Shown: in pieces, positions 1 through 36,671 of the stretch
Numbering within the stretch: position 1 is the first letter of the stretch
Layout of the letters: the number at the start of each line of letters is the position of its first letter
From: Lytechinus pictus
Lineage: Eukaryota
Assembly: GCF_037042905.1 (NCBI RefSeq)
Contig: NC_087245.1
Location: 5,396,001-5,460,000 of the forward strand
DNA: 64,000 nt
Direction of reading: 5' to 3'
The notes under the pieces: model-generated
Database searches by the model: none
Seen by the model: only the letters and a program-made list of their open reading frames with translations
Told to the model about the DNA's origin: nothing
Translations under genes and position numbers: made by a program

Positions 1-1511
1 GTTTTGAAAGTCCATTTTTGATGCACATGTACACGGCGTGTTTTTCGGTCGTGTACACATTGTAAACACTGAGAGCGAGTCATGTTTTCAGTGTTTCCGA
101 CATTTCGACACGGACCCGCATCAACATGTCAATATAATATAAAAAGGGGTATATACAAGTATAGCCTAAGTCGCGGTTTTAAAGCTTACCTGAGAAGTCA
201 GAAGTATCAATCCACAAAAATTGGTGGAATTAAAAAGTTTACTCAGCTTAGCAGCGCATTAAATTAATAAAGAATGCAAAAGAAAATCAGTGCAGGGCCC
301 TAGCTAGCGCCGACGTTCGTTGGATGCGCATTTTGCATACTGTACCGTACATGCATGCACAGATCGCTGCAGAATTAAGTGTAACTGAAGTTATCGATTG
401 ATTTTCATTATTTTATTGCCAATTTGAGGAGCGTTTCTTCGTAGGCTTGTAGCACATGTGTACGAGCGTATCAACACATAACTGTAGCAATGATCGCTGT
501 CGCAATTGGTGATTCTCAAATTGGCTCTGAGTGTGATTGAACAACGCTTTCGAGCTTTCGAGACCGGAGCAGACCCATTTCGTGGTACAAAAACTTGAGT
601 CTCCAGGATGAATGTGGATTAATCGGCGATTTTGGAAGTAAACTTACTCTAGGTTAATTGAAATATATTGACATATTAGTGATTATAACATGTGCAGTGT
701 CTGAGAATTAAGAATTAATGTGAGGCTGTGAGCTTGTTCACTGACTTTACAGTCCCATGCAAGCTTTATGCAGATGCTACCGTTTACACGGTGATGGAAT
801 TTAGTACACGTGCACTGACTTGACCGTGCGTGTACACGTGTACCCGAAACGGGCCTAATTTTAGGCAAGTCCAACGCGTGCGTTACGTATGGGACATAAT
901 TTTAGGGGCTGGAATGACCTGAAAAATGGTGATAAGGGACTTTGATTGGATTAAATACCATCATGTTGGTTGATATCTTGGAGAAGAATAATCATGTAAA
1001 AAATAGTGACATACACATGACATGACCATGATCATTCGGAGAGAAAACATGTGCCGTTACGAATGTGATGCAGAAAAAAGACAATTCTTTAACTTTTTTT
1101 TTTCAAGTTGAGAATTCTCTGAAAGTATTTCATTTGACAACTTGTAACTCAGTGATTAAAAGACACATCACTCAAGTATATTGAAGGCAAGTTTCGTGTA
1201 ATAAGGCAAAACCCTCTAATAACAGACTCATATTAGAATTTATGACATGTTACATATGGGACAGTTCTGTATGGAACATTTTGTCCCCATAGAGAACGTA
1301 CACAATTTTCCCCATGATTTTAATTTAAAAAAATCAAATACATGTACCGTAATAAAAAAAAAATGGAAATAACAAAAGAGTTTTTTTATTTTAAAATGTT
1401 CTATTGAGACATATTTGATAAGGAGATTATCTGTAGCCTTTTAACATTTCCCCCCCTTTTTTTACATTTTCCCTCCATATGTTCCATTTTTTAATGGAAG
1501 TTCCATACAGA

Positions 1512-1957
1512 CACTGTTCTCACTACCTTCCTAAAACAAGTTTACTGGAAACTAGTTTAGTGGAAACTAGTTTAACGTGTAGTGAGAACGGTCAAAGCGA
1601 TCTTCCAATCCGGTTCAGAAACCCACCTCGTGATGTAGTTTTCAAGATTGCTTTGCAATGTTAAACTGGTTTTAGCGTAAGTGAGGACACAACCGCATTC
1701 GGGAAGCGATCTTTGCACATTTTGAGCACGCTACTCCACAAGACAGGTTTAGAATGCCTACGCTGGATTTCAAATTTTGCACGAAACGTGTTACCCCACT
1801 GAGAGCGTTTCCATAGCACCAAGATCGCTTTACATGAAGTGATTTTGAAAACCACTTTCGTGTGATCAAGTGGGAATGCTAGCAAAGCGATCTTCCAAAT
1901 TGGTTTCCTGAATCGATTTCTAGTAAACTAGTTTTAGAAAGTGTAATGAGAACAGCC
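1512..1957. mobile_element. MITE-like inverted-repeat element
   Basis: ctgttctcactaccttcctaaaac... at the left and ...gttttagaaagtgtaatgagaacag at the right; boundaries approximate. Confidence 0.55.
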
Positions 1958-1989
1958 TCTATATATTGTAGGCGCTGCTTTTCCAACGG

Positions 1990-2660
1990 CGGCGTCGGTG
2001 TAGACATGAAATCTTAACCGAAATAACTTTTTTGGAAATGACAGAAAGTATATGGACCTAGTTCATGAAACTTAGACATAAGGTTAATCAAGTATTACTG
2101 AACATCCTGCCTGAGTTTCAGGTCACAAGACCAAGGTCAAAGGTAATTTAGGGTCACTGAACTTGCACCATGTTGGGGGAATCAACATCAAAATCTTATC
2201 CTACATGTAAGGTTAAGTTTTTTAAATGTCATCATAACATAAAACTATGAACCTACATGTAGTCCATGAAACTTGGACATAAGGGTAATGAAGTATTACT
2301 GAATATCCTGCCTGCGTTTAAGGTCACATGACCAAGGTCAAATTTCATTTAGGTTCAATGAACTTTGGCCAAATTGGGGACCATATTTGATGAAATGCCA
2401 TTATACACTGATTGTTTATGAATCTAGTTCATAAAACTTGGACATAAAAGTAATCAAGTATCACTGAACATCCTGTGTGAGTTTCAGGTTCATTTTCCAA
2501 GGTCAAAGGTCATTTAAGGTCAATGAACTATGGCAATGTTTGGGGTATTTGTTGAATTACCATCATAACTTTGAAAGTTTATGAATGTACATGTAGTTTA
2601 TGAAATTCAGACATAGGGGTAATCAAGTATCACTGACTAGTCTTAGGTCACTTAACTTTC
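1990..2660 (+). repeat. Tandem ~190-bp subunits of a dispersed repeat (continues at ~4049-4900); rich in AGGTCAAAGGTCA
   Basis: Recurring catgaaacttggacata...aatcaagtat.actgaacatcctg...ccaaggtcaaaggtcattt units. Related sequence at about 54260-54620 and 55370-55710. Confidence 0.75.
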
Positions 2661-3738
2661 ATTAAAAATTAAAATATTTATTTGAAACTTTAAGTTTTTC
2701 ACTTTCATTCTCAATTAATTAGAACTTCCAAGAGATCAGATGCAAATCTAAAGGTATTGTATTCTGGGAAATAACTTTAAATGTTCCGTATGGGACATTC
2801 CATCTTTGTACTTTACCTAATTTGCATATATTAAATTAGATGACTCCACTTTTTTTCTTGAAAGAGTAATACGATGTTGGGGGTCCATGTCCCACTATGA
2901 TTAAATATCAAAAGTTTTTTTGATTTTTCTACAAGTTTTTATAATTGTCCCATACATAACACCCATTTTTTATACCAATTATGCAAATCAGGAATATTTC
3001 TTAATGATTTTTAAAATGAAACATTTGGGCTTTCTTATCCAACCAATGATAGAGCAAAATAGAGATGAAATTTTGATTTATAGGGTGACCTTTTGTTGTA
3101 CATGCACTTCTGTCTAATTAAAAATTAATCAAAGATGTGTGGTCACATAAAAGACAGAACATTGCCTATGTGCCTGATTAATTTCTTGTGAAAATATGAA
3201 TTATAAACTAAAGAGACTTCCCTTGGTAATGTCTGATAAAAACTTTGGAACATTTATGTACATATTTGAATAGATAAAAGTACAATCAGACAAGCACAGT
3301 TTTTGATCCAGAAATTTTCACCCAATTTTGATGGTTTCCTACCAAGTACTGTAGGAAAAAAATAATAATTGGGGACGAGATAATTTTCACTCCGTCGGGT
3401 CGTCATCACCACTTCCGGTTCAGCTCGCGCGAGGTTCGCGATACTGAGTTTTCCACCACGCTGAAATCGATGCCAATCAGCGTAATATGTACAGATTATA
3501 ATACTTTTTATTTAATTTGGTCAGTTTTTATTCCATTTGAACTATGAATAAAAATAAAAAATATATTTCACGTGAAAATAATTTTTATTCATGTTTTTAT
3601 TTGGTTATAAAAATAGTAAACAAAAAATGAATATCTTAAAATTTTGCATTTAGCGACCGGCCTGACATCACGATCGTATTCGACTAGACGCTAAATATAT
3701 ACAGCATTCATTCCGTCCAATTTTTCGTCGACCACAAA

Positions 3739-3960
3739 ATGGATAAAAAATCAGTTTCGGAACTTAAAAAAATCTTAACTGACAGAGGAATACCGTGCAA
3801 TGGAAAGCGTCGGGCAGAATTAGTGACTTTAGCAGAAAAGGCCGTTAAACTGTATCGTGAAAGAGAGGGTTGTGATCACGAACTTTCCGAGCAAAAGCGA
3901 CGTTGTGTTGTTGTGCATGACGGCACTGTTGATCTGAATGGCAAAACAGTGCATTGGACT
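3739..3960 (+). pseudogene. Truncated transposon-gene fragment with an N-terminal SAP-like helix-extension-helix
   Basis: MDKKSVSELKKILTDRGIPCNGKRRAELV... has the SAP pattern. The ORF then runs into non-coding repeat sequence after ~4049. Confidence 0.45.
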
Positions 3961-4223
3961 TCCGAACGGGAAGTTGTAAATACCGAAAAGCTATCCCATA
4001 ATGCAATGCGCGTTACAGTGATTTTCCCGGATCTCGGCAAAATCGCTATTTGGGGTAGCGAGAATTGCCATCATAACTTTGAAAGTATATGGAGTAATCA
4101 AGTATCGCTTAACGGGAGCTTCAGGTCACATGAACAAGATCAAAATAAGGTCATTAAGTTCAATGAACTTTGGGCAATGTTGGTGATATTTGTTGAATTG
4201 CCATCATAACTTTGAAAGTTTAT

Positions 4224-4657
4224 GGCCCGAATTTACAAAGGTGGTTTTGAAAACCCATGGTTTAATCCATGTTTTTTGCAGATTTCCTGTATGAATTATG
4301 CTTAATAGCATGTATTGGGCGTGTGTATAAAAAAATTCCAATGCCGATGCACGCTTTTGTCACAGTGTGCCAAATTGACGCCTGTTACCATGGTTAGATC
4401 TGTACGCTATTTTATTCACGAGTCCACTGTTTGAAGAGTGGACTCATTAATTCAAACCAGAGGACTCATGAATAAAATAGCGTGGATAACCACGGCAACA
4501 GGCGTCAATTGGCACACTGACAAAAGCGCGCATCAGCATTGGACATTTTTTAATATACCCGGTAAAATGAGTGTAATTTATACAGGAAATCTGCATAAAC
4601 CATATAAACCATGGACTCAACCGTGGGTTTTCGAAACCACCTTTGTTAATTCGGGCC
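4224..4657. mobile_element. PIF/Harbinger-type foldback MITE
   Basis: TIR GGCCCGAATTtACAAAGGTGGTTT...AAACCACCTTTGTtAATTCGGGCC, 3-bp TSD TAT on both sides, internally palindromic. Confidence 0.8.
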
Positions 4658-5228
4658 TATAAGTCTAGATCATGAAACTTGGACATAGGATTTTTTTAAG
4701 GATAATCAAGTATCAATGATCATTTTGCACTAGTCTTTGGTTACATGATCAAGGTCAAAGGTAATATAATGAACGCAGTAATTTTATTATCATATGAAAT
4801 GTGTTTTTTGTGAATAATTGTTTCAAAGTCAGCAATGCACTAATGCAGTATATTGAATCACATAATGCAGGTGAGACTGCTAGAGAGGCATTTCACTTGT
4901 TTTATTTCTGCATCAATTGTATTTACATTTGGTACAAAAGATAGTTAATAGTAATACCATGTGTGTTCATATGGATGATAAGTTTAAAAAGTCATATAGG
5001 CCTTTAGGGTCAAAAGATTATATTGCATATTTTATTGAGTGAGAAACCAGGTGAGACTAGTGGTTCAAGGTGCGAACATCTAAAAAATTGATCAAAGCTC
5101 ACCCCTATCAAAGACATTTGGATCTGACTTTTAATGAGACTATACATTTTTCTTCTGTTCTATTCTTCCAGGTCTTGTGCTCCCTTATAGGCTTCCACAT
5201 CACGCCTTAACTCACTCCATCTTCTAAC

Positions 5229-5471
5229 ATGGCTAAGCCCAAAGTAAAAGCGGGCAATAGTAATGCTGTGGACAAATTGACTCGCCGTCCTCCAAAGAAC
5301 GTACTTAGAATCAAGATGGGCTCAACGGACAAGCGCAAGGTACGCAGCGGCAAGCTTAAAAAGGTACTCAAGTCATTGGAAGACCCTGATTTTATCTTGG
5401 AACCTGAAATGGATGCATTTGTAGATGAGGAATTGGAGCTGTCTGAAGACCTTCTAAATCAAATTGAAGAG
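5229..5471 (+). CDS. C2H2 zinc-finger gene, first coding exon (basic then acidic N-terminal region, 81 codons)
   Basis: Candidate acceptors at ttccag 5171 and ttatag 5190, ATG at 5229, open frame MAKPKVK...LLNQIEE, donor GAG|gttagt at 5472. Phase 0 matches the acceptor at 13812. Confidence 0.75.
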
Positions 5472-6122
5472 GTTAGTAAAGAAATGATTTGATGTTGACT
5501 GATGCAGCTTCTCATTTGTTATTATTATTATTTTTTTTCTATCAGAATTGGTGCCATAGCTTGCATAGAATGATTTGTTTAATTGTGTAAAATGCCGGGT
5601 AAAGAGAAGTCTAATTTCATCCTCATAGAGATTCAAAATCATGAAACAGAAAGGGATTTGTGTAATTTTAAATCCCAATGAAGCATATTTTTACTCAAAT
5701 TATTAAATTTCTCACTGAAACCCAAATTTATGTGACATGAAAGAATGATGCACTTGCACTTTATATATGTTCATTCATGTAGATTTGCTGCATATAAATT
5801 TTCTAGATGCAAATTGCTGTTGTGTCAAGCTTTCGGGTTTAAATAAATTGCACTCCAAAAAGATTTTCAAAATCTGGAATTACCTGACAGATAGGGAGAG
5901 GTTTGCCAAAAGAATGATTGATATTCACAAGGACAAATTTGACATAAAAAAGGTACATTGTAGGAACTGTAGTGTTTGAAGACTACTTCGATTTGGAATG
6001 TTTTGAGGTGAATATGTGCGTCAGGTGATGGCCCCAGCCAGCTAATAATGATATTAAATGTTTATTTCATTTACTTATATTTAAGAAGTCAAACATTTAT
6101 TTCTACGGTGTTTTTTGACATA

Positions 6123-6905
6123 CAGGTATGCCAGTTTCCGGCAATTTCCGGAATTCCGGCTTTTTAATAATTTTGGTATCTAATTTCCGGCTTCGAGATG
6201 TTATTTCCGGGTTTCAGGCCGATCTGATCATCTAAACTAATCGGACATTCACTTTCACAATTTCTTAAGTATGTTCCGTGTATTTGGGCATGAGAACATC
6301 GCAAAACAACTGTCACGCAAAACTAGCGCGATGTCGCAATGACCATGCCATGCGATCGCGATGCAAACGGTATACCGATGCAAACAGCGTGTATCAGTGT
6401 TTCTATGCAATGTGTACGTTGAAGAGTAACCCAGGGATCTCCGGAAATGACGGAACATTGATCATAGTATAGTTTACACTTATCTTCCGATTGTGAGTGT
6501 TTACATGAATTCATTAGTTTACATGTATATGAATTTTTCGCCTTGCCTGACGGGTGAGAAATTGATTAGCCTAACTGGAGTGTTAGGCCTAGGCCCTTTA
6601 TTTTTTTCTACTCATTGACTGCAATTCACATGAACTAAAAATGGTATTGGAGGTTGGAAGAGAAATCTATAGATGAGCATGAGTATCACAATACACTGTA
6701 GAAAATGTGTTGTGTTTTAATTTTTATGTATTTTTTATTTTTGTATATATAAAAAATGACCCCAAAATTGGATTAGATATGAGGGGAAAATATCCCTCGG
6801 ATATGCTCAGAATGCACCAAAGAGCATCTAAGAACCCCAGAGCACATCAATTTAGTTCACAAACAAATTTTCAGGCCCAAGAGCAATTTGCCACTGGCAT
6901 CCCTG
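6123..6905. mobile_element. hAT-like non-autonomous element with 6-bp TSD
   Basis: CAGGtATGCCAGT...ACTGGCATCCCTG termini, with GACATA at 6117-6122 and 6906-6911. Confidence 0.75.
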
Positions 6906-6944
6906 GACATAGAAAACTCATGCAAAATGCAGCAGCATAGCAGC

Positions 6945-7075
6945 AATTTTGTGCGCGAATACTTTTCAGTTTATTCTTGCCAGGTACCCATTTAATCTCA
7001 CTGGGGTTGAATGCAGCATGATGTAGATCAATTTCTTGCAAAAAAGGAAATTACGCCAAGGCTGGGATTACAAAA
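6945..7075 (-). mobile_element. Degenerate SINE-like fragment
   Basis: ccaggtacccattt...ctggggttga...ggctgggatt resembles the reverse complement of a tRNA-SINE core and B-box; recognised by pattern only. Confidence 0.35.
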
Positions 7076-7224
7076 TTTGACCATTTTCAAAGTCAGACTA
7101 TTTCCTTTTTCACTGGACCCACAAAAGTAGTCTAGATCTGGACGTCAGTACATGTAGATATTGTACAATGTATGTACATGTTCACCATTATGCTTAGTCC
7201 TCCTGACTTTTCAATCTCTCTTAT

Positions 7225-10200
7225 GGGTCAGTCCACGGGGTTGGGGCAAAAATTGTGACATCAGGGTCAAAAAATAGAAATGTAATAAATGAAAAGTTTT
7301 ATTTCTTATAAGTTTCATGGGACAATTCTTCAACTAAATCCACTTACAGGCATTTCATACCACCCTGCATATTTGAGTAAATTGCGAAACAAGATTTGAC
7401 AAAATACCACCGTTACACGGACATCATTTATCATCCTTACTTAGACTACATGTATACTCTCCCACTGTCAAAATAAAAGGGTTGATCTCAATTCCTCTTA
7501 ATAAATATTTTGCTAACAACATTTTTAGTCACTTTATTCCACATTTTCCAACATGGCATATACATGTATATTTTGAAAGATTTAGCATCAATAAATGGAA
7601 CTTGATGCTCTGTGTGTATACCAGTGCCATGTTCTGTGTCGTTCTTTTTTCTCACCAGTCAAGAAAATTCAATTTATGATGGCATGTAGAACTAAATAGT
7701 TGACAGAAGTCATGCCTCAACAGAATGGAATATTCTTTTTGGAAAAACTCAACTACTCTTTCTGGCCTAACCTTCTATTTTTGGTGTTACCACCGTTACA
7801 TGGACATCATGTCTCTCTAACAGAGGTATAATTTGTAGCATTGTATTAAGTTAAGGTCCATTAATGGTCATCACATACCAAATTACACTTTCTGCCTTAA
7901 ATTATTTGCACAAGATCAATTGATTATATTAGAAAAAAAAAACATTTTGCATGTCAAATTCTTTGCAAATAAAAGAAATTTAAATTAGAGATTAAACAAA
8001 GAAAAATGTACAAAATTATTGACAAATTATGTGTCGTTCTTTTTTCTCACCAGTCAAGAAAATTCAATTTATGATGGCATGTAGAACTAAATAGTTGAGA
8101 GAAGTCATGCCTCAACAGAATGGAATATTCTCTTTGGAAAAACTCAACTACTCTCTCTGGCCTAACCTTCTATTTTTGTTTGGTGTTACCACCGTTACAT
8201 GGACATCATGTCTCTGTAACAGAGGTATAATTTGAAGCATTGTAAGTTAAGATCCATTAATGGTCATTACATACCAAATTACCCTTTCTGCCTTAGAATA
8301 TTTGCACAAGTTCAATTGATTATACTAGAAGAAAAACATTTTGCATGTCAAATTCCTTGCAAGTAAAAGCACTTTAAATTAGAGTTCAAACAAGGAAAAA
8401 TGTACAAAATTATTGACATTATATTTAAAATCATACTAATCCTCAAGGTTCCACTTCCGTCTGTCTCTGGAAACATTTATGTTTCTGTCTAAAGGGGAAA
8501 AAACGAAACAGTGCTATCTTACGATCTCCAAATCTTTTATTACTTTGAAATATCTCCTTCAAGATATTACTTTCAAATGTAGATACCTCTGTTACACGGA
8601 CATCATGTCCTTGTAATGGTCATATTGAATAGCATTACTTGAATATTTGACATATTTTTCTAGTATCAACACACTAAATGCAAGTTAACTCATCTTACTC
8701 AAGTGTAGAAATACAACATCTACAAGCAAGCTTCTGTAATTCATATCAATTAACAGGTAAAATGTTTTTTTTATTCATACACAATTATAAAATTTTTGAT
8801 ACCTTTGATACAATATTCAGGTGAAAAATATGTAGGGAAAAGGTACTACATGTACATGTAGTTCAGTTCTTCTAAGCTATGGTTTTTCAAGACAAAACAA
8901 GACAAAGTTGGCATGGAAGACATGGACAACGCATTTATACCTTACACATATAAACTTGTTCAATTTGTTAACTCTAATTTGTTTTACCTCAGTTACATGG
9001 ACATCATGTCCTCAAAATGGTAGTGTAGAAGTGACATTAATTAAAATATAATCATGTCATCACTGGAACTTACATACATTAGATAAAACATTAAGTTCCA
9101 ACATGCGAAAAGGACAATTGTAAAGTACTTGGTGGACAAATTTAATTAAAAAAACTCACCACCTTTATATCTTCTGTTTTTTTAACAGAGTTGTAAGCGA
9201 GGAAATAAAATGTACTAAGCTATTCTAATGTTCAAAAATAAAACTGCAAGAACTCTTTGGTAAACTTCTTACTGGCAAATGCAAAAAAATGTATTACATG
9301 TACACTAAACCTGAGTATTAAAATTAACATGCAATATTTCTCTCTGCATTCAGGTTACAAGTTTATGAACTTCAAGAAGACTGGTGACCCAATAAGAAAT
9401 TTCAGTTTGGAAGAGGATTCTGTCAATGTCACAAAGTAGATGGAGGTAGAATTGTGCCTCGCCATCAGGCCAGGAGTACAGGTCACCAGATTGACACTTC
9501 ATGTACTGAAGATATACATTTTCACCTTGAACAGAGGCTACCTGTAGTTGAGAAAAATAGTATTTGGAAGTTTGACTATATTTTTTAAGCAATAAGCAAA
9601 TATTTTTTTATATTATATCAAATCATTTACTTATTTATGTCTTGACATTTTCTCATTAAAGGGGGTGGATTACTAGGGACAATGAATCTGATCTGTTCTT
9701 GCAAAATACACAGGAACCTTCACTTTGTATTTTTTCATAGCAAATAGAACTCATCATTTCATAGTTCATAAATTAAATATAAAGTTACGTTTTATAGAAG
9801 GTTTTTGTATTTGTGTTGTTGTGTTCTACTTTGTTTTCACAATACAATTACTTGCCCATTACCTTTTCATAAATTATCTGTACTTCAATTTCATTTCTCA
9901 ATGGATTAATTTAATCTAATTTTATTCTGCATTCTAATCAAGGGTGGTTACCGGTATCTAGACAATTCCATTTAGTTTTTTATGACCATCCTATTTAATT
10001 TTCATCGCTGAAGTTTAATTGTTCAAGCAATTACATAATATATGTATGTTTTATTGGAATTAAATGAATTAATGGAATTCAAATCTGCAATTTACCTTCT
10101 GATACAGTAAATAAACTTTTGTGAAACAAACTTGATTGTGTCACATTTTCTTTTGTTCACTTGTACATGTTTTAAAAATCTCATTATATTGCAATAAAAA

Positions 10201-11907
10201 AAAATCACATTGAAAACAATCACACAGGCTTTTGCTTTCTGATAAAACGAACCCCCCCCCTCCTTACAATTGAATATATAGAAATCAAAATACAAAATAT
10301 TGAAAAAATATTGAGAGAAATAAAAAATGTGCTGAAAAGTATAACATTCAACAAGATGAAAAGTTTTGGGAAGGTTAGGCCTACAGCCAAGAATTACTAG
10401 TAATTGGATTATGGCCATGCTTCATCATACACAAAACACATGTACTATATATAGGGGGTAGTAACAGAAAAATTATTTTGCCCCCCCCCCTTCTTTCGGA
10501 TTGGGATCAGCTGACAAGCAAAAAAAAAAATGGGGGGGGGGGGGGGCCTGCCTCCCCCGTGGCGCTGCCACTGGTTCTAAACTCTCATTTTTGGGGGGAA
10601 ATTCAAATTTGATCATCAGGTATTTGATACCCATATTATGTAGAATCAGTAGGAGCCAATTTAAACAAGGCGAGATTTTGTACCAAATTTGAGATGTCAG
10701 CATGATCATCGGTGATAGAGCAGTTTTGAGTATTCATTGGCCTATTGAAATAACATATTTCGGTGTTTAAAAAAATCAACTAAATTGCGATTGAATCATG
10801 TCAGCTAACATTCAAAACATGTTTGCACGGAATCACTATTAAAAACATTATTTCTTTGGGGCCATTTAGCAAATCTGGAACAAACACGGCGATGTCTCAA
10901 TCACATATTTCACTTACACGAAAAGATACATGTGGGACTGTAGTAAAAGATTATGGAAAATTAGCGAGATTTTTCAAACTTAAAAACACTTTCTGCATGA
11001 TAATATAGTTTCACATTTTTAAGATAAGGTTTAACTGATTTAAAAATACGAGTATCGGGATAAATCTCCGTACTTACGTCGCTTTGAAAGGGAAAACATC
11101 GTTGAGATCCAATCCACCGTTACACGGACATTGCGGGAAGATTCCCAATTGCAATGCTGCAAAACACCCGATATCATAGCCGTTCATGTGCACGTGGATT
11201 TCGGCTAACATCCCGTCCGTCTGATACAACGACGGTCTCTTCTCCGGTCTCTCCTTTTTACATACGCGATGAAATGTGATCCACCGTTACAAATTTGGCT
11301 CGGACATCGCCTAAAACATCGGCGACCCTCGATTAATTTACATGACATTAACATTGGTTTTCAAAGCTAATCTTTTGATGAAAAGTTGCTTACTGCCTGC
11401 CCTTTATTTCTGACACATAACTTTGGAAAGAATGATTTCTGACTTTTAGTTATTTACCACTTTACCGCCGTTACAGAAAAAAATAAACGCGGACATCGCA
11501 TGTAACGGTGGTATGCGATGTTGTAGGAATGATTTATGCTATGAAGCCTCTTTTCATTTGCTATCCCATTACTGTTTTGTTATTAAACAAATGTTGCTTT
11601 ATCAATCATGGCCATTTGAATTTGACTAAGTTTATCTTTTAATTAGATATCTTCAACTGAAAATGACAAGTTTGGATGTCACACTTGGTGCCCCCAAAAA
11701 GAGTCTGGACATCATCATTTAAAGTCTCACCATCAAAAATACTTGAGGTTCAACATTTTTATTTCTGCATCAAGTAATTGCTTACATAACTGCCTTCCAA
11801 CAAAACCACATTGCAACATCCAAACGCCAAACACATTTCCAGGATAAAGCCAACAATTCATAGGGAACACAAAAAAGTGCTGTTGCCCCAACCCCGTGGA
11901 ATGACCC
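7225..11907. mobile_element. 4.7-kb TIR DNA transposon derivative (Sola-like termini) in the zinc-finger gene intron
   Basis: TIR GGGTCAgTCCACGGGGTTGGGGCAA / TTGCCCCAACCCCGTGGAaTGACCC, flanks TTAT/TAAT, many internal CCACCGTTACAyGGACATC motifs. Confidence 0.75.
7635..8420 (+). repeat. ~395-bp tandem duplication inside the 4.7-kb element
   Basis: tgtgtcgttcttttttctcaccagtcaagaaaattc starts at both ~7635 and ~8030, and the units are near-identical. Confidence 0.85.
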
Positions 11908-12675
11908 TAATGGCAAAATGGTATTTTCTTGTGAACTGAGTCAGTGTAAGGTTTTCTTAAAGCAAATAACTGCCAATGTCTAAATCTAAACTACCGGTAA
12001 ATGCACTGTCACACTTGACATAAAATGTTTTAAGACTGCCTCAAAGTTTGTTGATTCCAAGTATTTTCTGATCGAGAATTTTACCATGATCTACCCCGAT
12101 CAGAAAATACCACTTACAGGTAATTTTGGCAGTGTGATAGAAAATTACGCGTAATATTCCCGAAAGAAAATACCTGCTAAAAATCGACTAAATAGTAAAT
12201 ACTAGGTCAAAATAACGAGAAGTTTCGCTGGGATTTTTCCAAGGTTGCAAGTATTTTGGCTGTGTGAAAGCACATAATGGGAACTTTCTTCGCCCATTGT
12301 GTAGGTTGCGGGCACTGTGGATGGCTGCTAAGCTAGCGATTTAAAATCTCTCGCCTTGCCTGCTTATCAGACCATAATGCGCATGCCTGTAACATCAAGA
12401 ACTTACACCTAAGGATGAAAAGTGCATTGTGGATTTGGGGCAGTGGTAATGCAAGAATAATTATCAGGTATTTTTTAACCTGAAAAGGCTCTCGTAATTA
12501 AACAGGGATTCTTGTGATCGAGGTGGTTTGAAACCACCTTAATACATGCGGTACACATAAGTAGATGATAGCATGAGCACATCATGGTTGTGCCTATGCA
12601 TTAATCACTGGGCCAGGATGAAAAGTGCCTTGTGGATGAAAGGGGGCTCATATTATAATGTTTGCTTATACAATA

Positions 12676-13481
12676 CAGTGCGTCCCACAAAAAATGAAAC
12701 CAAGGTTTAGCGACAATTTATCATAACTAAATCACAAATACAATAGACAAATGACCTATCATTGTAAAGCTTAGAATGTCGTCTTTTAGCTGGTATAACA
12801 TACAAGATTTTTCATCCACGCATGAGTGAGTAAAAACAATTTGAAGAAAGAATAGCAAAAAGTCATTTGGCGGGGGTATCAAAATTTCAAAAAGAAAATC
12901 ACATGCCCAAAAAATTCAATATCTGCTCTTTAATTTGATAACTAAATCGCAGAAAAAGGTCAAGAAATACAAAGTTATGTTTCTCTAAAACAATGCTTGT
13001 ATTTCCATAATTTCATGAAACATACGTGTTTTCACCGGTTTCCCACCGAAGCTATCGCACAGTTAACAAAAGACTCTGCATGGCTGATCATCAACAAAAC
13101 TGAGTGTCGAGTAAGTCTAAAAGCTATCCTGTAAAACCTCTTCACTTTATGAAATTATTGGAATTCAAGCCTTATTTCAAACAAACAGAACTTTGTTATT
13201 TCTTGACCGTTTTCTGTAATTCAGGTATCAAATTAAAGAGCAGATATTGAACTTTTTAAAAATGTGATTTTCTTTTTGAAACTCAGATACCGCCTGCCAA
13301 GTGATTTTTTGGTTTCCTTTCTTCAAATTGTTTTTGCTCATGCAAGGATTAAGAATAATCTTAAGTTATTTCAAGTGAAAGAGGAGACCCTACGCTTTAC
13401 AATGATTTTTCTATTGTATTTGCGATTATGGCATGATAAATCATCTATAAATCTCGGTTTCGTTTTTTGTGGGACGCACTG
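12676..13481. mobile_element. Tc1/mariner-type MITE with long TIRs
   Basis: TA|CAGTGCGTCCCACAAAAAA...TTTTTTGTGGGACGCACTG|TA. Confidence 0.9.
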
Positions 13482-13811
13482 TATTTGAGATTATCAGTAA
13501 TCCTAGGGGATCGTGTGGAGCTGAATGTTTTCTCTTTATTATCTGTACTTACAGAGATCACCTACATATATACTCTTCCTTTATAATTGGGTTGATAATA
13601 TTCTGATCAGATTTCCTATTCAGGGGCTATTTTTCTTGTTTTTTCGTACCAATAATATTTTATATTGAATCCAATCATAATATAAGAAGCACCTTTCTCA
13701 TATATTCAATAGGAGAGTTGCTGAACAAACATGTAAGTTTTTTGGGGAAATTCCTTTCAGTCCATAGAAATTAAACTGCATGTACTATTTTTTTTCTGTA
13801 TCTTGTTGCAG

Positions 13812-15437
13812 ATTGAGATGGATGATGAAGTTGAAAACGATGTGAAAGATTCAGGAAGAGGTTTTGAGAAGCTCTCTACTTCCAAGAAGCTGCAGACCAT
13901 GAAGCGAAATCCCAAGACTGGGCAATATGAATGTCCATATTGCGTTTTTTGCTCTCCTTACTACAGTGCGGTGGCCAGTCACACCCTGATCCACACAGGT
14001 GAGAAACCATTTCGCTGTAAGATCTGCGGATACCGTGCTCGTCAACGAGGTCATGTCGTGGTTCATATGCAGATGCATGAGGAGCAGAAGCCATACAAGT
14101 GTGTTAAATGTGACTACTCCACAACCCAGCCATCTCACCTTCGAGTGCACATGAGGGTTCATGCTGATGAAGAGGAGAAGAATGAAGGAGATGGTAACTA
14201 CATTTCAGAACAGCTGGCTTCATTGAAAGAACAAATGAAGAGTGAGGAAGAGAAAATGCAGTTGTTTTCTTGTAATCAGTGTGATTATGTTACCAAGCGC
14301 AAGCACAATCTCATCCAGCACCTTGCGGTCCACACAGGAGCAAAACCCTACAAGTGTGATCTGTGTGACTACTCTTCCAGCCAGAAAGGTCACTTGAATG
14401 TTCATATTCGCACCCATACTAAGGAGAAGCCCTTCAAATGTCCCAAGTGTCCATTTGCATCAACAGTACCAAAGTCTCTGCGTGAACATCTCCAGATGCA
14501 CTATGGGCAACGCCCTCTGAAGTGTCCTTACTGTTCTTTTTCTTCCAGCCAGGCTTTCTCCATCAAGCGTCACATTGCCTTGCACGAGGAGGTAAAATCC
14601 TTTTCTTGCAAGTTCTGCAGCTACAAGACCACTGTTGAAGAGGATTTCAATCACCATAGGTCTATTCATACCCAGCAAGCCTCATACAAGTGCACATATT
14701 GTCCTTATGAGACACCTTTCAAGCATATCTTTGATACCCACATCCTGACCCATACTGAAGCTCTAGGCATTACCACTGAGAATCGTGTTCCTAAAGGAAA
14801 TATTCCATCAATGCGGTCCAGACAGGGCAGGAAGAATCGCCTTCGCAACACTAAAAAGAATGAAGTTCATGATGAACCGGAACCTGATAGGAAACTACAT
14901 GAAAGCCTGTTTATCCATCCACCAACCCCCTCATCTTTGAAAGAGCCCAAAGCCAGTCCTGTTCCTGGATTGGAGCCTGAGGACCTGATAGTTGATGTGA
15001 ATGAGGATGCCTACAAGCATGATGATGAGGTGGACTATCACCACATGGAATTTGCCAAAAACCCCAAGGCTGTCCGAAAGCAGACTTCTCCAACGCCTGC
15101 TGATGCGACTCGCACTGTATCCACTGCCATGCAGACAATGCCGGAACCTGTGACTGATGAGCTACCACCGACACCTACTCTCTCTGACAAGAGTGCTCCT
15201 TCTCTTCCCGACATTGCTACTCTTTCCGCTAATGATGGTGCATCTCAGCAGGATATCAATGAAGCTGAGGATGAACTGTCCTTGGTCAATATGGAAGCTA
15301 TGGAAGAAGAAATCGTGGTGGAGAATCCCATGAGTAAGCTCTTCACCTGTGAGTATTGTGATAAAGAATTGATCGGTCAAGAAGACTGGCGGCGACATGT
15401 GTCTCGTCACTTCATGGAATGGCCAGAAATCAACTGA
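13812..15437 (+). CDS. C2H2 zinc-finger transcription factor, large terminal coding exon (10 fingers: 3+6 clustered plus 1 isolated C-terminal; REST-like)
   Basis: 544-codon ORF with a polypyrimidine acceptor ttgcag|ATT at 13811/13812, repeated CxxC..HxxxH motifs with TGEKP-like linkers, a Pro/acidic spacer, a lone C-terminal finger FTCEYCDK...HVSRH and TGA at 15435-15437. Confidence 0.95.
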   Translation: MEMDDEVENDVKDSGRGFEKLSTSKKLQTMKRNPKTGQYECPYCVFCSPYYSAVASHTLIHTGEKPFRCKICGYRARQRGHVVVHMQMHEEQKPYKCVKCDYSTTQPSHLRVHMRVHADEEEKNEGDGNYISEQLASLKEQMKSEEEKMQLFSCNQCDYVTKRKHNLIQHLAVHTGAKPYKCDLCDYSSSQKGHLNVHIRTHTKEKPFKCPKCPFASTVPKSLREHLQMHYGQRPLKCPYCSFSSSQAFSIKRHIALHEEVKSFSCKFCSYKTTVEEDFNHHRSIHTQQASYKCTYCPYETPFKHIFDTHILTHTEALGITTENRVPKGNIPSMRSRQGRKNRLRNTKKNEVHDEPEPDRKLHESLFIHPPTPSSLKEPKASPVPGLEPEDLIVDVNEDAYKHDDEVDYHHMEFAKNPKAVRKQTSPTPADATRTVSTAMQTMPEPVTDELPPTPTLSDKSAPSLPDIATLSANDGASQQDINEAEDELSLVNMEAMEEEIVVENPMSKLFTCEYCDKELIGQEDWRRHVSRHFMEWPEIN

Positions 15438-18400
15438 TAGTGATCTACAAGTGCATCCTATAATTCTATCTTGCATGATAGATTTCTATTCCAACTACAT
15501 GTACATGTTAGTTAACTTTTTGAAAAAAGTCTGATATTTGTATGTTTTATTCTCCATAGTTACATTTATTTATTTTTTTCCTTGGGGGAGGGGAATGTTA
15601 AGAAGGGGATATTAAGGAAAAAGACATCATTTGCATCAGGCTACTGCTAATATTGTAAAGTGGAGCATCAGCATACATGTCTTTTTATCAGCTCATTCAA
15701 TGTCAAGGAAATAAGGAAAATAAGATTTTTTTTTATAGGTTGACAAAATAATTCTAAGTTGTTGAAGTTATGAGATGAATTCAAGAGAGTTTTTGATTTT
15801 GGCAAATTTTATGTGAAATACATGTATGTGATTGATGGATAAAAGAAGAGCAGATGCATGTACATGTACAAGTAAGATTTTAATAGAAAGGGTTAAACCC
15901 CCCCTAATTTACAAAGGGATTGAGGAAGGGCATGCTCTCATGATGAATTTGCTATTGTTTTTAAGCCATGTTCCTCATTTCATAATGTACAAATTAAAGT
16001 AAACTGTATTGCTTCAGTTTCGAATTGATAAACAACGATGCAGAACTTTTCATGATTGTGTAAAGAGCAATATATTTCTATTTTACATTTATTTTTTTAA
16101 CAAGTATTTCGTACATGTAGATATCTAATCATGTGAGAACATTAATATTTTCAAAGTCTTCCTGTTTTTAGACAAGAAATTGTGCCTTCTGATCATGCTG
16201 GTAATTTCGATTTATTTTCTGTCTAGAAAATATACCTTGAAATTTTCTTGAATAATTGAAACCATGGTGCTTTTGACTTTTACATGTACATGTGATTATG
16301 TGTTCTATAAGGTAAGAGATAATTTGATAAACCATAAAACCATGTGGACTCATTTAATTTTTTGTGATGTTCAAATGATTGGAAATTGGATTTGAGTTGC
16401 TACATTATGTTAACCATGATTTTATATTGTGTTGACCTTGTACTTTAATGTACATGTAACTTGTGATATGAACATTTTCTTTTTCTATATGATTTAGTAT
16501 GTTGAGTTCATATGAATACATGATGCATTCTGTTGTATACTGTGTAAATATAGTTATTGTTTTAATATGAAATGATGGTAGAGTGTAGGTTTTCATTGTT
16601 TATTTCATAGTCTAGTGTTATTCATGTCAGACTATTAAATCATAATAACTATTTAAAGTACATGTATGCAATTACGGTACCCCCTTTTCCCTGTCTTGAT
16701 ATCTACAAAAATCATTTCACAAAATATACATGTACATGTAGATTTAGGTTACATTTATTTTTCAATTCATGTTTTGCTACGAACTTGTAAGTTGTAAATG
16801 TAAAGTAATTCTAATTAATAGTCAATGTACATGTAGTTGCCAAAGATTGACATTGGCCATTGACCAGTGCCACACAGAATTTTGATAATTAACAAATCAC
16901 TTTTTACCATTATCAAATTAATATTACTATTGCTATGTTAGCTTCTGTCCTGTATACCTTGTACACGTATGTATTTTTTGTGAACAGAATGCTCTTTTCT
17001 CTGTTGTAATGTTTTGACTGTTAACATATGGATGTGAGATCATCGGTCACTTTGGGACAAATATTGAAGTACTTCACACGTGGAAACAAATGATGTGAAT
17101 ACCAGAAGTATAATTTTTTTTCTTCTGGATTGGCTAAAAGTGTGTTTCGGAACTGTAGTAGTGATTGGAATAATTGTACAGCTTTTAGTATGGTAACATC
17201 TACATCTACATGTACATGTACACGATATGGTCTTGCAGCTACAATGATGACAGAACCATGCCCTTAGTGGCTTACAATCATACAGACTTTTCATGCTGTT
17301 CTAATCTATATTGAATGTTTAGCCTATGTCTACATCTACGCAAGATGAACACACCATGGTAGTATTACCATTCTAACCTACAGATCTCATACCAGCAAAT
17401 CATTTGTAGTCTTTTTCATCAGACCAGTTGAGAACTTGTTTTTAGATTCTCGTGATCTTGCATGTAGCCACTCTGCCACAGAGAACTAAGATGTACATGT
17501 ATTTGGAGGATGAGACAATGTCAAATCCCCCTATCATAATTTCGCTATGTGTGATACAACAAGGACATTTCACAGAACTTTTTACACTAAAAGAAAAATG
17601 TGAATAAATGAAAACCATTCTGTCCCTATCTATCACGATGCATTTGTTATGTGCAGTAGTGGCTATGATACAAGATGGTCATTCAAATTGTAAACGTCAA
17701 TAATGTACCTGGCTTCCAGTATGCATGTTAATGATATGGTCACCAAATTGTTTGAAACAAAGAGTAAAGCAAGACTGTCCAGTATCCATTCACATGTGAG
17801 TATCAGTCTGTAACTGTTTGTATTGTTACACATGTTCTATTAAGTGTTTTATTGTATACAGATTATCTGCTAGACAATGATTTCTTAAAATTATCAAATT
17901 GTGTGAATTTTGTTTTTATCACTATCAGTATAAAGACTTTGAGACCCCTAAAACCTGCAAAACTTGATTGGTAAAAGAGACTAAGTCTAGTAGCTCTAAT
18001 GCCTACTGCAAGTGTAACCTTATCTGAGGGCCTACTACCAGTACAGCAAAGATTACTTGGTGTCTGGTTACATTGAATCTAGACTACTTAAAGCTATGTA
18101 ATAGATAATCGTTAGGGAGTTTAGGGATGTTTTACAAGAGTAAAGGTTGACTAAAATCATGCTTAAGCGTCAATGCACATACATGTACATGCACATGTAT
18201 TTATATTTAATGTGGAATTTAATTGTTGATAATGCGGTAGGGCATATTCCCAGAAACGATGTGTCCATTGTGGTGATTCATGTACATGTATGTTAAAGCA
18301 TCACCGCATTGTACAGGTCATTCTCACCTTTTATTTACCACCTTTTTATTTTGGATTAGATGAAAGGTACATGTAGAGAGGGAGAGAGAGGGAGGATGGT

Positions 18401-19315
18401 GGTGAAATCATTTATGCTGACAAATCAAAAATTGCTTCTGGGCTGTCCAAAATTAAACTAAGTTACATGTATCTCTTTTTTTTTAAATTACATGTATTTG
18501 ACACAATATTTACAGACTTCGTTTAGACCAAGCTGTCATGACATGCATCAGGGTTAAGATAACATAGCTATCAAGTTTGTGTCAGTTGACTTCTCCTCCC
18601 ACCATGTATATCCCTTCAAGGCTTTTCACAGATGGGATGACAATCAATGAATAGTCAGTATTGTGCATGCTCATAGTCATCTCCACTTTGATTTGTTCAT
18701 CTTACTAGCAGCATTTTCATTAGTGTAGTTTGGCAGTATTTGTTTTATTCTAACAATGTCCTTTCAAAATGTTGACTTGGGTTTGATGAGTGGTACATGT
18801 ATACTTGTATTCTAAAATTCATATGCAACTTGATTTTCAATGGCAGCCAATCAAATGAGTGTGTTTGGGACAGTCACAAGTGCTTGATTTTTTTTTTTTT
18901 TTTACAAAGTAGTTGCATTTGTGAAAAATACACAACTCTTTTGTGATGCTATAATTTTGTTTCAAATTATTTCAAGTGACACTCAATTTTGATTGTCAAA
19001 AAGCAAGTCCTAAGCACTCATAATAGTGTAGCCTTATATGTACATACATGCAAGCATTTATTTGTTGAAATGAAATGTATTGAAAATTAGAACATAATTG
19101 AAGTGAATTATATCTTGGCTGAAAGCGTTATGATTACGATTATTTAAATGAATGCTCCATGAGTTAAATCTGGGGGTATTTCACAAAGAATTAAGTGTGA
19201 CTTGGAGTCTCCCTTAAATTTCAGTTGCATATGTTGTAAAACGCATCAGTGCATCGGTCAGATCATGTGCAGGGGACGTGCACTGTTGCTTATCAATCAA
19301 ACAGATCATGTGTAA

Positions 19316-19807
19316 AGGGGAAGTTCACCCTGACAAAAAAAGTTTATTTTAAAAATAGTAGGATAAAATAATAGAAAGTAGTGCCAAAAGTTTGAGAAAA
19401 ATCCATCAAAGAATAAAAAAAGTTATAAGAATTTTATTTATTTGATTTGTGAAGTCGTATGCAAGCAGCTTTTCTACATATCGTATGGTAAAAGAATGAA
19501 TGAAATGTCATTTTCTCAGAAAATTGAAAATGGTTTTCACTGTACCTTCAGTAGTCAAATCATTTCACACCCGTTTCTAAAGACAAAACAAAACTGAGTC
19601 ACGAACCATTAACAAAATTGAAATATGTGCATTTTATATTACATAACATATGGGGCAGCTGCTCGTTTATGACGTCATAAATCCCAAACTTTAAATTCTA
19701 ATAACTTTCTTATTCTTAAATGGAATTTCCTCAAACCTTCACCAATGAGTTTAACAAAATTAACTGCTATTTTTACAACAAACTTTTCTTCAGGGTGAAC
19801 TTCCCTT
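19316..19807. mobile_element. TTAA-site (Kolobok-like) MITE nested inside another TIR element (~19171-19880)
   Basis: AGGGGAAGTTCACCCTGA...TCAGGGTGAACTTCCCTT|TTAA. Relatives at ~25920-26347 and an end at ~23361-23381. Confidence 0.7.
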
Positions 19808-20215
19808 TTAATATAATATGTGCATTGCCCTTTAAGCATGACTCACACAGTTAAGTCACACTTAACTCTTTTGTGAAACACAGTGTGCTTAAAATAGTAA
19901 GGCAGAGCCCAGGTTGAGGAAATGTGTACAACTTAGAGCCAATGAATAATGAAAATGTTATTATTTATGGAGCAAAAATTTGCATTTCTTTTTCGGAAAG
20001 TATTGTTGCAACCAGCAATGATTATTGCAAACTACAGGTACAAGTACATCTCTGTAATCTCTTGAGACCATGGAAATCGGTCCACTGCGAATTTGAGTTG
20101 AAAGCAGAAAATAAGACTTTGTCTTAAGATTTATTTAACTTTGATTATTTGACTGGACTGTAGGTAAACTTATGCAGACTAAATTTACATTCTATGATGT
20201 ATATATATTACCTTT

Positions 20216-20694
20216 TTTTAACTGATGCAGTAGCAAAAGTAATTTTCAATACTAGCATCCACCCAGTCATCATTGTTCAGTGGTATAATTTTCATTTTAG
20301 TTTTCCCATTTTTCAATAACATGCAAATTATTATTTTTTAGATTGAATTTTCTGTCTCAGGGACTTGAGAATTGTTTATATTTGAAATAATCACTTTAAT
20401 AGTCTCAATGGGATTTATTATGAATTTACCTTTGCTTGATTTCCAGAGCCTTAACTTTTAACTGATGCAGTAGCAAAAGTAATTTTCAATACTAGCATCC
20501 ACCCAGTCATCATTGTTCAGTGGTATAATTTTCATTTTAGTTTTCCCATTTTTCAATAACATGCAAATTATTATTTTTTAGATTGAATTTTCTGTCTCAG
20601 GGACTTGAGAATTGTTTATATTTGAAATAATCACTTTAATAGTCTCAATGGGATTTATTATGAATTTACCTTTGCTTGATTTCCAGAGCCTTAA
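20216..20694 (+). repeat. Exact 240-bp tandem duplication
   Basis: Sequence lines from 20221 and from 20461 are identical up to 20454/20694. Confidence 0.95.
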
Positions 20695-23529: not shown

Positions 23530-24496
23530 CAGTGCGTATAAAAAAAAGTTTACACTTTGAAAAAGCACTGGCAATTAAAAAATATATAACATGTGGGTAA
23601 TTTTGTCACATATAATCTTGGGTTTGGGTCTCATCTATAATCCAATGAAAGTAAAAGTTTTGACAGAATGTTACACTTGAGTGAGCACTGTCCATTTTTG
23701 TAAAGCTCGCAAAAATCTGTTTGCGCAGAAATGCTTGTTTTCACGCCGTGTCAAGGGGAAAGGGCGAAATCAAACTTACCCTGCGAAACATTTCTCATAA
23801 ATTTCCCTTGCACTTTAGTCAATTGAAGTAAAACGGATACGTTCAAGCATTTTGTAACAATTTTGCCACCCAAATTGAAGTTTCAACACTTAGTAAGCAC
23901 AACCTTTACCCTTTTTGTGCCAGCTGGATCTGAGGACATAACTGAATCTGAACAAAAGTTTATATCAGACATCTCCAGCATTTTTTCACTAAGTTATCAT
24001 TTAAAGTGGGTTTACATTTCAATTTTTCATTTAATACTTGTTTCTCCACACTTCTCAAGCTGGACAATGATTAACAAAATGAAAATCAAGCCTAAGCCAT
24101 TTCATGTAAATCACAGCTCAGTGTAAAGCAAATATCGTCACGATGGCCTCGGTGTGTGGTGGGGCGAAATGCACTATTCGAAGTGTTTTGGGCAGTAAAC
24201 AAGTCAAAAAAGGTAAAATATATCTTCAAATCAATTTTACTAGCTAAATTCCATGTGTTCTTCATGATTAAAGTCTACTTTTATTCGCATAACTATTTCA
24301 AAGTTCTGCGCAAATCATTTTTCACTAACTTTTCAAGTGGTGCTCACTCAAGTGGAAATGTTTTTCGACAGTTATATCGTCATTTGCTTAAATGGATCTG
24401 TACCAATGTTAAAATGTGGAAAAATCTTCAGGATATTACAAATGTATAATTTTACAGGATTTTTTCAAAGTGTAAACTTTTTTTTGATACGCACTG
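23530..24496. mobile_element. Tc1/mariner-type MITE
   Basis: TA|CAGTGCGTATAAAAAAAAGTTTACACTTTGAAAAA...TTTTTCAAAGTGTAAACTTTTTTTTGATACGCACTG|TA. Confidence 0.9.
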
Positions 24497-26554: not shown

Positions 26555-26853
26555 GGCCCGTATTCTGAACTCGGGATTAAATCAAACCCTGGTTAATAGT
26601 TGTGGTTTAAGTATGGAGAGCCATTTGGGGCACAAATCCCTAACAATACACATCCAATTTATTGACTCATATGACACCCAAATCGTTCATAATTGTCTGA
26701 GAATGATAGCTGAAGTATTTTGAAGTATTTTTCCGCCTTGTGAAAGCAAAAGGAAACAAAACAGTAAAACAGAAATTTTGAATTTTTGGCTCCCCATAAT
26801 TTTAGCACAGATTTAGATCGTGGTCTAAGTTAAACTCGACTTCAGAAACGGGC
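26555..26853. mobile_element. Harbinger-like MITE (degenerate relative at ~21330-21590)
   Basis: GGCCCGTATTCTGAA...TTCAGAAACGGGC termini. Confidence 0.55.
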
Positions 26854-28044: not shown

Positions 28045-28168
28045 TCATCTCGATGTTTCTGTCTTTGCCTTTTGTTTGTCCTTCTGTCTCACTCCCGTCT
28101 CCCTGAATTCCTTCCTTTCAGCTAAATACTCTTTCTTGCACATTTCAAAGAACTCCTTATCCTGGTAG
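28045..28168 (-). CDS. CMC1: CMC1 exon 4 (last coding exon)
   Basis: ttgcag|C TAC CAG..., translating YQDKEFFEMCKKEYLAERKEFRETGVRQKDKQKAKTETSR*, which resembles the CMC1 C-terminus. The four exons total 351 nt = 116 aa plus stop. Confidence 0.93.
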
Positions 28169-28548
28169 CTGCAAGATATTAACAATTATAACATAAAAGC
28201 ACATCAAGGTTCATATCACTTGAAAATCCAAGGATGAGGACCAAGTTATAAATGCTCCAGACACAAGACTATTATTACACATTACCAAAAACTGTAGAGA
28301 AACATGTTTATAGAACATAAATATTGCATTATTCTCCAGATACCATACCATGCACTTTACTTGAGTGTGTCCCAAGAAAATTGAAAGAGCAGGCAAGCTA
28401 GCAGATACATGTATGTACCATTATGATTTCATATCAAGAGGGGCGGAGTTTCAGGCAAAGCCTTTCTCACCCCCCCCCCCCCACAACAGTGTTGTTGCTG
28501 CCTAACCCTTCCCTACTTAGAGCCTGGATAAATAATGAAAATACATAC

Positions 28549-28639
28549 TATCCACTAATACAGTCCTTTAGTGCTCTATTTTCCTTTCGACATGAAAATG
28601 CCATGGTCAGTCCTTTCTCCTTACAGCATCTAGTGAATT
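28549..28639 (-). CDS. CMC1: CMC1 exon 3
   Basis: caccag|AA...GGATA|gtatgt, translating (E)FTRCCKEKGLTMAFSCRKENRALKDCISG(Y). It completes the first and carries the second CX9C motif. Confidence 0.93.
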
Positions 28640-36624: not shown

Positions 36625-36631
36625 CGACTAT

Positions 36632-36671
<40 letters not shown>

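What the first reader, a model, noticed from the sequence alone, without database searches (positions are those of the whole stretch)
2050..2600. Direct evidence that TACATGTA is a TA->TACATGTA insertion (Tc1/mariner excision footprint)
Seen: paralogous repeat units differ only by this scar. ggaccTAgttcatgaaa (TA at 2059) corresponds to gaaccTACATGTAgtccatgaaa (2254-2261), and gaatcTAgttcat (2425) to gaatgTACATGTAgtttat (2588-2595). A third scar is at 2202-2209. Known: excision of Tc1-type elements with CA...TG ends leaves TA+CA+TG+TA. Matching elements are present here (CAGTG MITEs at 12676 and 23530, the CACT element at 61177).
Basis: partly seen in the sequence, partly recalled or inferred. 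Interest (0 to 1): 0.7.

Follow-up and report, generated by a model that had tools for sequence, protein, structure and literature searches.

The report
Transposon exit scars in urchin repeat
In this sea-urchin DNA the word TACATGTA occurs about once per thousand letters, and at three places where sister copies of a repeat lack it, it is a six-letter addition at a TA site, likely the scar left when a cut-and-paste jumping gene landed there and left again.

Summary
All three TACATGTA words at 2202, 2254 and 2588 are six-base gains at a TA. Sister units in the window lack them, and so do high-depth copies of the repeat family in public runs.

The word occurs 61 times against 1.6 expected. Its flanks carry the A(-3)/T(+3) bias published for Tc1 and Sleeping Beauty targets (60 of 112 half-sites against 32.5%). 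CA…TG-ended MITEs and an intact DD34E Tc1 lie in the window, and worm Tc1 leaves this same heritable scar (PMC4490562).

So the insertion is shown, but the excision origin is inferred: no copy with an element at a scarred TA was seen. Unlike worm soma or Sleeping Beauty, the +4 and +5 scars are not enriched.

This is a known footprint at an unusual density, which I did not find in print. The scan has noted it before in this genome (51 notes) and in mollusc DNA.

The parts
2202..2209 (.). TACATGTA scar 1, in the head segment before unit 2
   Evidence: Contigs of 4 of 4 runs leave out exactly 6 letters at 2202 (2, 2, 2 and 12 contigs); the degenerate in-window head at 1998-2050 also lacks it
2254..2261 (.). 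TACATGTA scar 2, at the CTAG site of unit 2
   Evidence: Best deletion is 6 bases at 2254-2256 against unit 1; with 6 bases removed it aligns without gaps to 2051-2095 (88.9%) and 2417-2461 (86.7%); X3 contigs run from 2238 into the scar-less unit 1 (table 5c)
2588..2595 (.). TACATGTA scar 3, at the same site of unit 4
   Evidence: Best deletion is 6 bases against units 1 and 3; loose ends at 2582/2583 in 4 of 4 runs continue with the scar-less site (table 7)
2059..2060 (.). Empty TA site, unit 1
2425..2426 (.). Empty TA site, unit 3
4666..4667 (.). Empty TA site, further unit (4655-4775)
2030..2660 (+). Host repeat: four head-to-tail units of about 165-200 bases of a very high-depth family; further pieces at 4060-4226, 4655-4775, 54258-54354; resembles a Helentron-type non-autonomous element (membership not tested)
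   Evidence: contig depth in these bins is thousands of times that of unique flanks (table 2)
1339..59154 (.). Field of 61 TACATGTA words in 56 loci, 5 of them tandem doubles
12676..13481 (.). TA-flanked MITE with CAGTG…CACTG ends (candidate donor type)
23530..24496 (.). Second TA-flanked MITE with CAGTG…CACTG ends
61177..64000 (.). Tc1-family element, left end TA|CACT, two intact 342-residue DD34E transposase frames in inverted arrangement; right end lies beyond the window

Best explanation
TACATGTA here is a six-base gain at a TA site, likely the scar that a Tc1/mariner-type element with CA…TG ends left when it cut itself out in the germ line. Shown: the ancestral state is a single TA and the gain is six bases at 3 of 3 checkable sites; the flanks match the published Tc1 target bias; elements with the right ends are present. 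Inferred: an element landed at the TA and duplicated it; the transposase then cut two bases inside each end, leaving CA on each broken flank; the two overhangs were joined end to end and filled in, giving TA+CA+TG+TA. Also inferred: because a scar puts CATG beside a TA, it matches half of the Tc1 target motif and attracts further landings, which would explain the tandem doubles. The scars in units 2 and 4 are likely two separate events at one favoured TA.
For: Polarity: 6 letters left out at 2202 in 4 of 4 runs; loose ends at 2582/2583 show the scar-less site in 26 (X12), 32 (X13), 6 (X1) and 216 (X3) contigs; in-window scans. Constant insert in unrelated flanks: 56 loci. Target bias: A at -3 in 60 of 112 half-sites against 32.5% of other TAs (p=3e-6), and still 40 of 89 against 29.4% (p=0.001) after removing flanks that look like part of a second scar. 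Both A(-3) and T(+3) at 19 of 56 loci against 10.7%; other TA-NNNN-TA words show 34.4%. Published motifs: Tc1 CAYATATRTG, Sleeping Beauty RCAYATATRTGY (PMC2577343 table). Tandem doubles 5 against 0.72 simulated (p=0.0007). Donor-type ends and a DD34E transposase in the window. Worm Tc1 break has 2-base 3' overhangs (PMC4490562 legend) and this scar is 24 of 103 germ-line revertants (supplement). Units 2 and 4 are the least alike pair (10 of 51 differences) and 0 of 3 informative columns group them.
Against: No copy with an element at a scarred TA appeared in the rows shown (only the best-supported rows are printed, and the stretch laid held 5 of 56 loci). The other footprint classes are not enriched: TACATA 66 against 62-67 expected, TACAGTA 14 against 11-12.5, whereas +4 is called the typical worm somatic scar (78%, PMC13148408) and TACAGTA/TACTGTA the Sleeping Beauty scar (PMC6943129). 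The resident transposase's best solved relative is Sleeping Beauty, a 3-base cutter (E=2.8e-28). The three resident elements show the A(-3)/T(+3) bias in only 1 of 5 readable half-sites (too few to judge). Scars outnumber CA-ended elements 56 to 3. Two X13 contigs show a six-base gain reading CATCTA at the same TA, which a flank-templated process could also give (table 7). No laid contig was seen to carry one of the window's own scars.
Confidence: 0.78

Rival explanations
1. The scar comes from one end only of an element whose terminal four bases are CATG (a Minos-like four-base footprint). Being palindromic, either end would give the same TACATGTA.
For: Would explain the single, uniform scar class. 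Tc1/mariner footprints are said to copy the first or last 2-4 bases (PMC6943129 passage). The Minos six-base footprint is recalled and named in note e1-7787227; no paper that I read confirmed it.
Against: No TA|CATG…CATG|TA element in the window: among 1,238 inward-facing pairs the best shared 15 of 20 further bases, no better than the direct-orientation control (19, 15, 14). The elements found end in CAGTG or CACT.
Confidence: 0.07
2. A host process that needs no transposon (polymerase-theta templated fill-in, slippage or hairpin repair at TA breaks) adds CATGTA.
For: CATG lies four bases 3' of the TA in the repeat unit. CATCTA variants beside ATCTA flanks occur (17196-17222; two X13 contigs). 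Slippage could make the tandem doubles.
Against: The insert is the same in 56 loci with unrelated flanks; there is no CATG within ten bases of the empty 2202 site; a templated process would copy the flank, and gives no reason for a Tc1-like A(-3)/T(+3) bias.
Confidence: 0.07
3. The word builds up by base changes (CpG decay of TACGCGTA-type words) or is kept as a protein-binding site, as proposed for the same word in Phytophthora.
For: CpG is depleted (0.63 of expected). PMC3520976 reads TACATGTA as a transcription-factor site and cites Irx binding; scars cluster near genes.
Against: The three sites are length changes, not substitutions. CpG precursors are rare (1, 3 and 1 copies) and the other 15 CATG-centred palindromes number 0-6.
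Confidence: 0.02
4. TACATGTA is ancestral in the repeat and the short form is a deletion.
For: Two of the four tandem units carry it at the same position.
Against: Contigs from 4 of 4 runs (three coded organisms) continue with the short form; 3 of 5 in-window units with the site are short; the two scarred units are not sisters.
Confidence: 0.02
5. The words are a sequencing or assembly artefact.
For: No independent contig was seen to carry one of these exact scars.
Against: One-mismatch neighbours are in excess (86 against 49-53), as expected of ageing real sequence; flank bias and clustering are biological in pattern.
Confidence: 0.02

Closest known systems
Tc1 excision footprint taCATGta of Caenorhabditis elegans (PMC4490562 passages and Supplementary Data 3 read whole; Eide and Anderson 1988 seen only as cited in PMC3520976 and PMC13148408)
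   Same: Identical sequence, +6 over the empty TA, heritable (24 of 103 frame-restoring germ-line revertants; 10 of 36 without lig-4; 3 of 39 without polq-1); same target bias.
   Different: In the worm it is one of 26 products and is called rare, with +4 typical in soma (the reversion assay cannot see +4). Here it is the only strongly enriched class and lies about once per kilobase.
Sleeping Beauty canonical footprint TACAGTA/TACTGTA (PMC6943129 passages)
   Same: TA duplication plus terminal bases of the element; the resident transposase is a DD34E relative.
   Different: Three bases from one end (+5); that class is not enriched here (14 against 11-12.5).
Phytophthora motif-1 TACATGTA (PMC3520976 passages)
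   Same: Same abundant palindrome in non-coding DNA; one listed example has the partial tandem form.
   Different: The authors rejected a footprint origin because of its abundance and read it as a transcription-factor site; the passages seen report no indel test. Here the indel test shows insertion.
Helentron-associated interspersed elements, HINE/DINE-1-like (PMC4067079 passages), for the host repeat
   Same: High-copy, non-coding, with central tandem repeats; reported from sea urchin.
   Different: Subterminal repeats, 3' stem-loop and TT target were not established for this copy.

Membership tests
Tc1/Tc3-type two-base excision footprint | Ancestral single TA, duplicated on both sides of the added bases | tested here: met
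   (3 of 3 sites; placement at 2588 is ambiguous within 2584-2590 because of one flanking substitution)
Tc1/Tc3-type two-base excision footprint | Added core equals the first two and last two bases of resident elements (CA, TG) | tested here: met
   Two complete MITEs and one Tc1 left end begin with CA after TA
Tc1/Tc3-type two-base excision footprint | Flanks carry the Tc1 target preference (A at -3, T at +3) | tested here: met
   against the motif table in PMC2577343
Tc1/Tc3-type two-base excision footprint | An element stands at the same TA in another allele, copy or species | tested here: inconclusive
Tc1/Tc3-type two-base excision footprint | Transposase cuts two bases inside each end | not testable with these tools
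   Needs an excision or cleavage assay
Tc1 family transposase (element at 61177) | Paired-like HTH plus DDE domain with DD34E spacing, TA-flanked inverted ends | tested here: met
   Pfam HTH_Tnp_Tc3_2 and DDE_3; 34 residues between D and E; only the left end is inside the window
Sleeping Beauty-type three-base footprint | TACAGTA or TACTGTA at excision sites | tested here: not met
   14 against 11-12.5 expected
Minos-like four-base one-end footprint (recalled) | A TA-flanked family whose terminal four bases equal the core (CATG) | tested here: inconclusive
   None in this 64 kb; the genome could not be searched
HINE / Helentron non-autonomous element (host repeat) | Central tandem repeats in a high-copy non-coding element | tested here: met
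HINE / Helentron non-autonomous element (host repeat) | Subterminal inverted repeats, 3' stem-loop, insertion in TT | not tested
   Candidate ends only looked at by eye

The most novel reading that the evidence does not exclude
This germ line runs a high-turnover land-and-leave cycle: CA…TG elements are removed soon after landing and the break is closed by one stereotyped route. Scars therefore outnumber elements about 20 to 1, each scar becomes a better landing site, and one fixed six-base word is a major source of small insertions. The scar map would then record where transposons struck in the germ line, and the same word in other eukaryotes (for example the Phytophthora promoter motif) could have this origin.
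Probability: 0.35. Interest if true: 0.75.

Novelty: new variant of a known kind. Interest (0 to 1): 0.48.

Why it matters
Excision footprints are normally seen one at a time in assays. Here one footprint is the most over-represented eight-letter word in the window. If the origin holds, these scars let one count and map past germ-line transposition without finding the elements, show which repair route the germ line uses, and explain a recurring false 'regulatory motif'. This locus adds a clean polarity test: three scars inside a high-copy repeat whose family state can be read. The mechanism itself is known from worms, which caps the surprise.

Tried and rejected
No whole genome is held, so no genome-wide count was made.

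Only window 1-6650 was laid on public contigs, which leaves 51 of 56 loci untested that way. No row was printed for the scars at 1339, 2254 (table 4) or 6520; 315 gap rows were not shown, so this says nothing.

A search for empty-site paralogs of all 56 loci inside the window gave convincing matches only for 2254 and 2588; the others were short, AT-rich or microsatellite matches and were dropped.

Scans for family copies found 0 and 1 matches in metagenomes and 0 in viral contigs. The one locus, L001, matches over the 20-base pattern only and was taken as chance.

TACTAGTA (11 against 1.0) was rejected as a second scar class because 9 of 11 lie in element ends, a MITE, a tandem array or a microsatellite.

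The protein comparison printed was out of register and was redone.

LTR or Ginger ends (TG…CA, recalled) were rejected: losing their middle gives the halves in the wrong order.

Two amphioxus papers held no '6 bp' indel statement in the main text (term searches only; supplements not read). PMC2874221 gave no Minos footprint length.

Full report
Setting. The window is animal DNA of about 35% G+C. Residues 300-540 of the zinc-finger frame at 13815-15434 are 100% identical to a protein labelled Lytechinus pictus and 81% identical to the next relative, so this is sea urchin. No whole genome was available.

The observation. They lie in four head-to-tail units of about 165-200 bases (2030-2660), with further pieces at 4060-4226, 4655-4775 and 54258-54354. 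Units 1, 3 and the unit at 4655 read CTAG at the site; units 2 and 4 read TACATGTAG. Deleting 1-10 bases at every offset, six bases is best for unit 2 against 3 of 3 scar-less units, and against unit 1 only the three placements equivalent to a TA duplication (2254-2256) reach the best score. For unit 4 six is best against 2 of 3 units and ties with eight against the third. Without an indel the ten bases upstream match at 3-4 positions; with +6 they match at 6-9. Default MAFFT runs shift the gap upstream or miss it, so placement depends on scoring while the length difference does not. The claim that the units differ only by the scar is too strong: they differ at 5-10 of 51 bases.

Which state is older. 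I laid contigs of 4 of the 15 listed runs (three coded organisms, three studies) on window 1-6650. The repeat bins have depth thousands of times that of unique flanks, so most contigs there are paralogs. At 2202 all four runs show exactly six letters left out (depth 11,182 of 23,039; 16,547 of 79,757; 498 of 1,052; 7,694 of 240,408). These shares do not tell how many copies carry the scar. At 2582/2583 loose ends from 26, 32, 6 and 216 contigs continue with the scar-less site, and joints from 2582 back to 2423 occur in all four runs. For 2254 no gap row was printed, but X3 contigs run from 2238 into the scar-less unit 1. The family state is therefore a single TA and the window's forms are gains. 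Units 2 and 4 are the least alike pair, and none of 3 informative columns groups them. This favours two events at one favoured TA, though a small gene conversion is not excluded.

The wider pattern. TACATGTA occurs 61 times in 56 loci against 1.57 expected and is the most over-represented 8-mer under an order-2 model. Each one-mismatch neighbour occurs 0-8 times; together they number 86 against 49-53, which suggests about 6-7% decay per base (9% under order 1, a rough figure). CpG precursors number 1-3. Five loci are exact tandem doubles against 0.72 simulated. Loci cluster: 14 of 56 lie in 16001-20000, and 0 of 5,000 random placements at TAs were as uneven in 4-kb bins. None lies in the zinc-finger exon, the two MITEs or the Tc1 element, but few are expected there.

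Why a Tc1-type footprint. First, the same insert sits in unrelated flanks, so it comes from a constant outside source. Second, the flanks show A at -3 in 60 of 112 half-sites against 32.5% of other TAs, and 40 of 89 against 29.4% after removing anything like a second scar. Both A(-3) and T(+3) occur at 19 of 56 loci against 10.7%, and other TA-NNNN-TA words show no such bias (34.4%). This is the strongest part of the Tc1 and Sleeping Beauty target motifs tabulated in PMC2577343 (passages). Third, TA-flanked elements beginning CA are present: two MITEs and a Tc1 with two intact DD34E frames. Fourth, in C. elegans Tc1 excision leaves two-base 3' overhangs (PMC4490562 passages). In that paper's Supplementary Data 3, read whole, the TACATGTA product is 24 of 103 germ-line revertants, 10 of 36 without lig-4 and 3 of 39 without polq-1 (my sums; the assay sees only frame-restoring products). 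A scar also places CATG beside a TA, matching CAYR of the target motif, which would draw repeat landings; that step is inference.

What is not shown. No allele or paralog with an element at a scarred TA was seen. The printed rows are only the best-supported ones and orthologous cover was thin. Collection scans gave nothing usable. The scar spectrum is narrower than in known systems: TACATA 66 against 62-67 and TACAGTA 14 against 11-12.5, whereas +4 is called the typical worm somatic scar (PMC13148408 passages) and TACAGTA/TACTGTA the Sleeping Beauty scar (PMC6943129 passages). The resident transposase's best solved relative is Sleeping Beauty, so its cut position is open. The resident elements' own flanks fit the bias in 1 of 5 half-sites. 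Two X13 contigs show a six-base gain reading CATCTA at the same TA, and 17196-17222 mixes CATCTA and CATGTA units; these could be decayed scars or flank-templated repair. A one-end, four-base footprint from a CATG-ended element would also give a uniform scar; none was found in 1,238 candidate pairs, but 64 kb is a small sample.

Comparison with print. The footprint is known. PMC3520976 (passages) cites it as a rare Tc1 scar and rejects that origin for the same abundant word in Phytophthora. I found no paper describing dense TACATGTA scars in sea urchins or other marine invertebrates in the listings of seven full-text searches (only the top 11-40 rows of each were seen), nor a six-base indel statement in two amphioxus papers (term searches). 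The library lacks most subscription papers and I did not read those papers' supplements, so absence is weak evidence. The host repeat resembles Helentron-type elements with central repeats (PMC4067079 passages); I did not test its ends. The scan's own notes hold 51 entries on this word in this genome and similar ones in molluscs; they are unchecked and were used as leads only.

Verdict. Insertion at TA: shown at 3 of 3 sites. Tc1/mariner excision origin: likely (0.78), not directly shown. It is a known kind of scar at a density and uniformity that I did not find described. Interest 0.48.

Noticed in passing
window 61177-64000: Tc1 element built as a large inverted pair: two intact 342-residue transposase frames point away from the centre, 99.8% identical over 1,210 bases and differing at 2 residues, with a 169-base tandem duplication between them. 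It looks very young.
   Followed up: partly
window 9949, 11992, 54832, 57095: TACCGGTA occurs 4 times in unique flanks against 0.4 expected (p=7e-4, 16 palindromes tested): a possible second scar class from CC…GG-ended elements. Not tested for indel status.
   Followed up: partly
window 15496-18794 and 52484-59154: Scars crowd just downstream of the zinc-finger exon and in a second block near the window's end; 38001-52000 is nearly empty.
   Followed up: partly
window 55300-55313: A double scar sits in what looks by eye like the head of another repeat of the host kind; no paralog in the window to test it.
   Followed up: partly
window 4224-4657: A foldback element with GGCCC…GGGCC ends and an apparent TAT duplication interrupts a unit of the same repeat about eight bases upstream of the scar site; Harbinger-like by recall. 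Its ends cannot give the scar.
   Followed up: no
window 3742-4040: Start of a frame with a SAP domain lies inside the host repeat region and has raised contig depth in two runs: probably a piece of another mobile element.
   Followed up: no
window 32495-34225: Element with about 670-base inverted arms (88%) ending in CTAGTAG-like letters; accounts for two TACTAGTA words and holds two scars.
   Followed up: no
window 17196-17222: Short array mixing CATCTA and CATGTA units; the same CATCTA gain appears at the repeat's TA in two X13 contigs.
   Followed up: partly
window 7632-8418 and 20216-20701: Recent local tandem duplications: about 390 bases at 92% and 240 bases at 99%.
   Followed up: no
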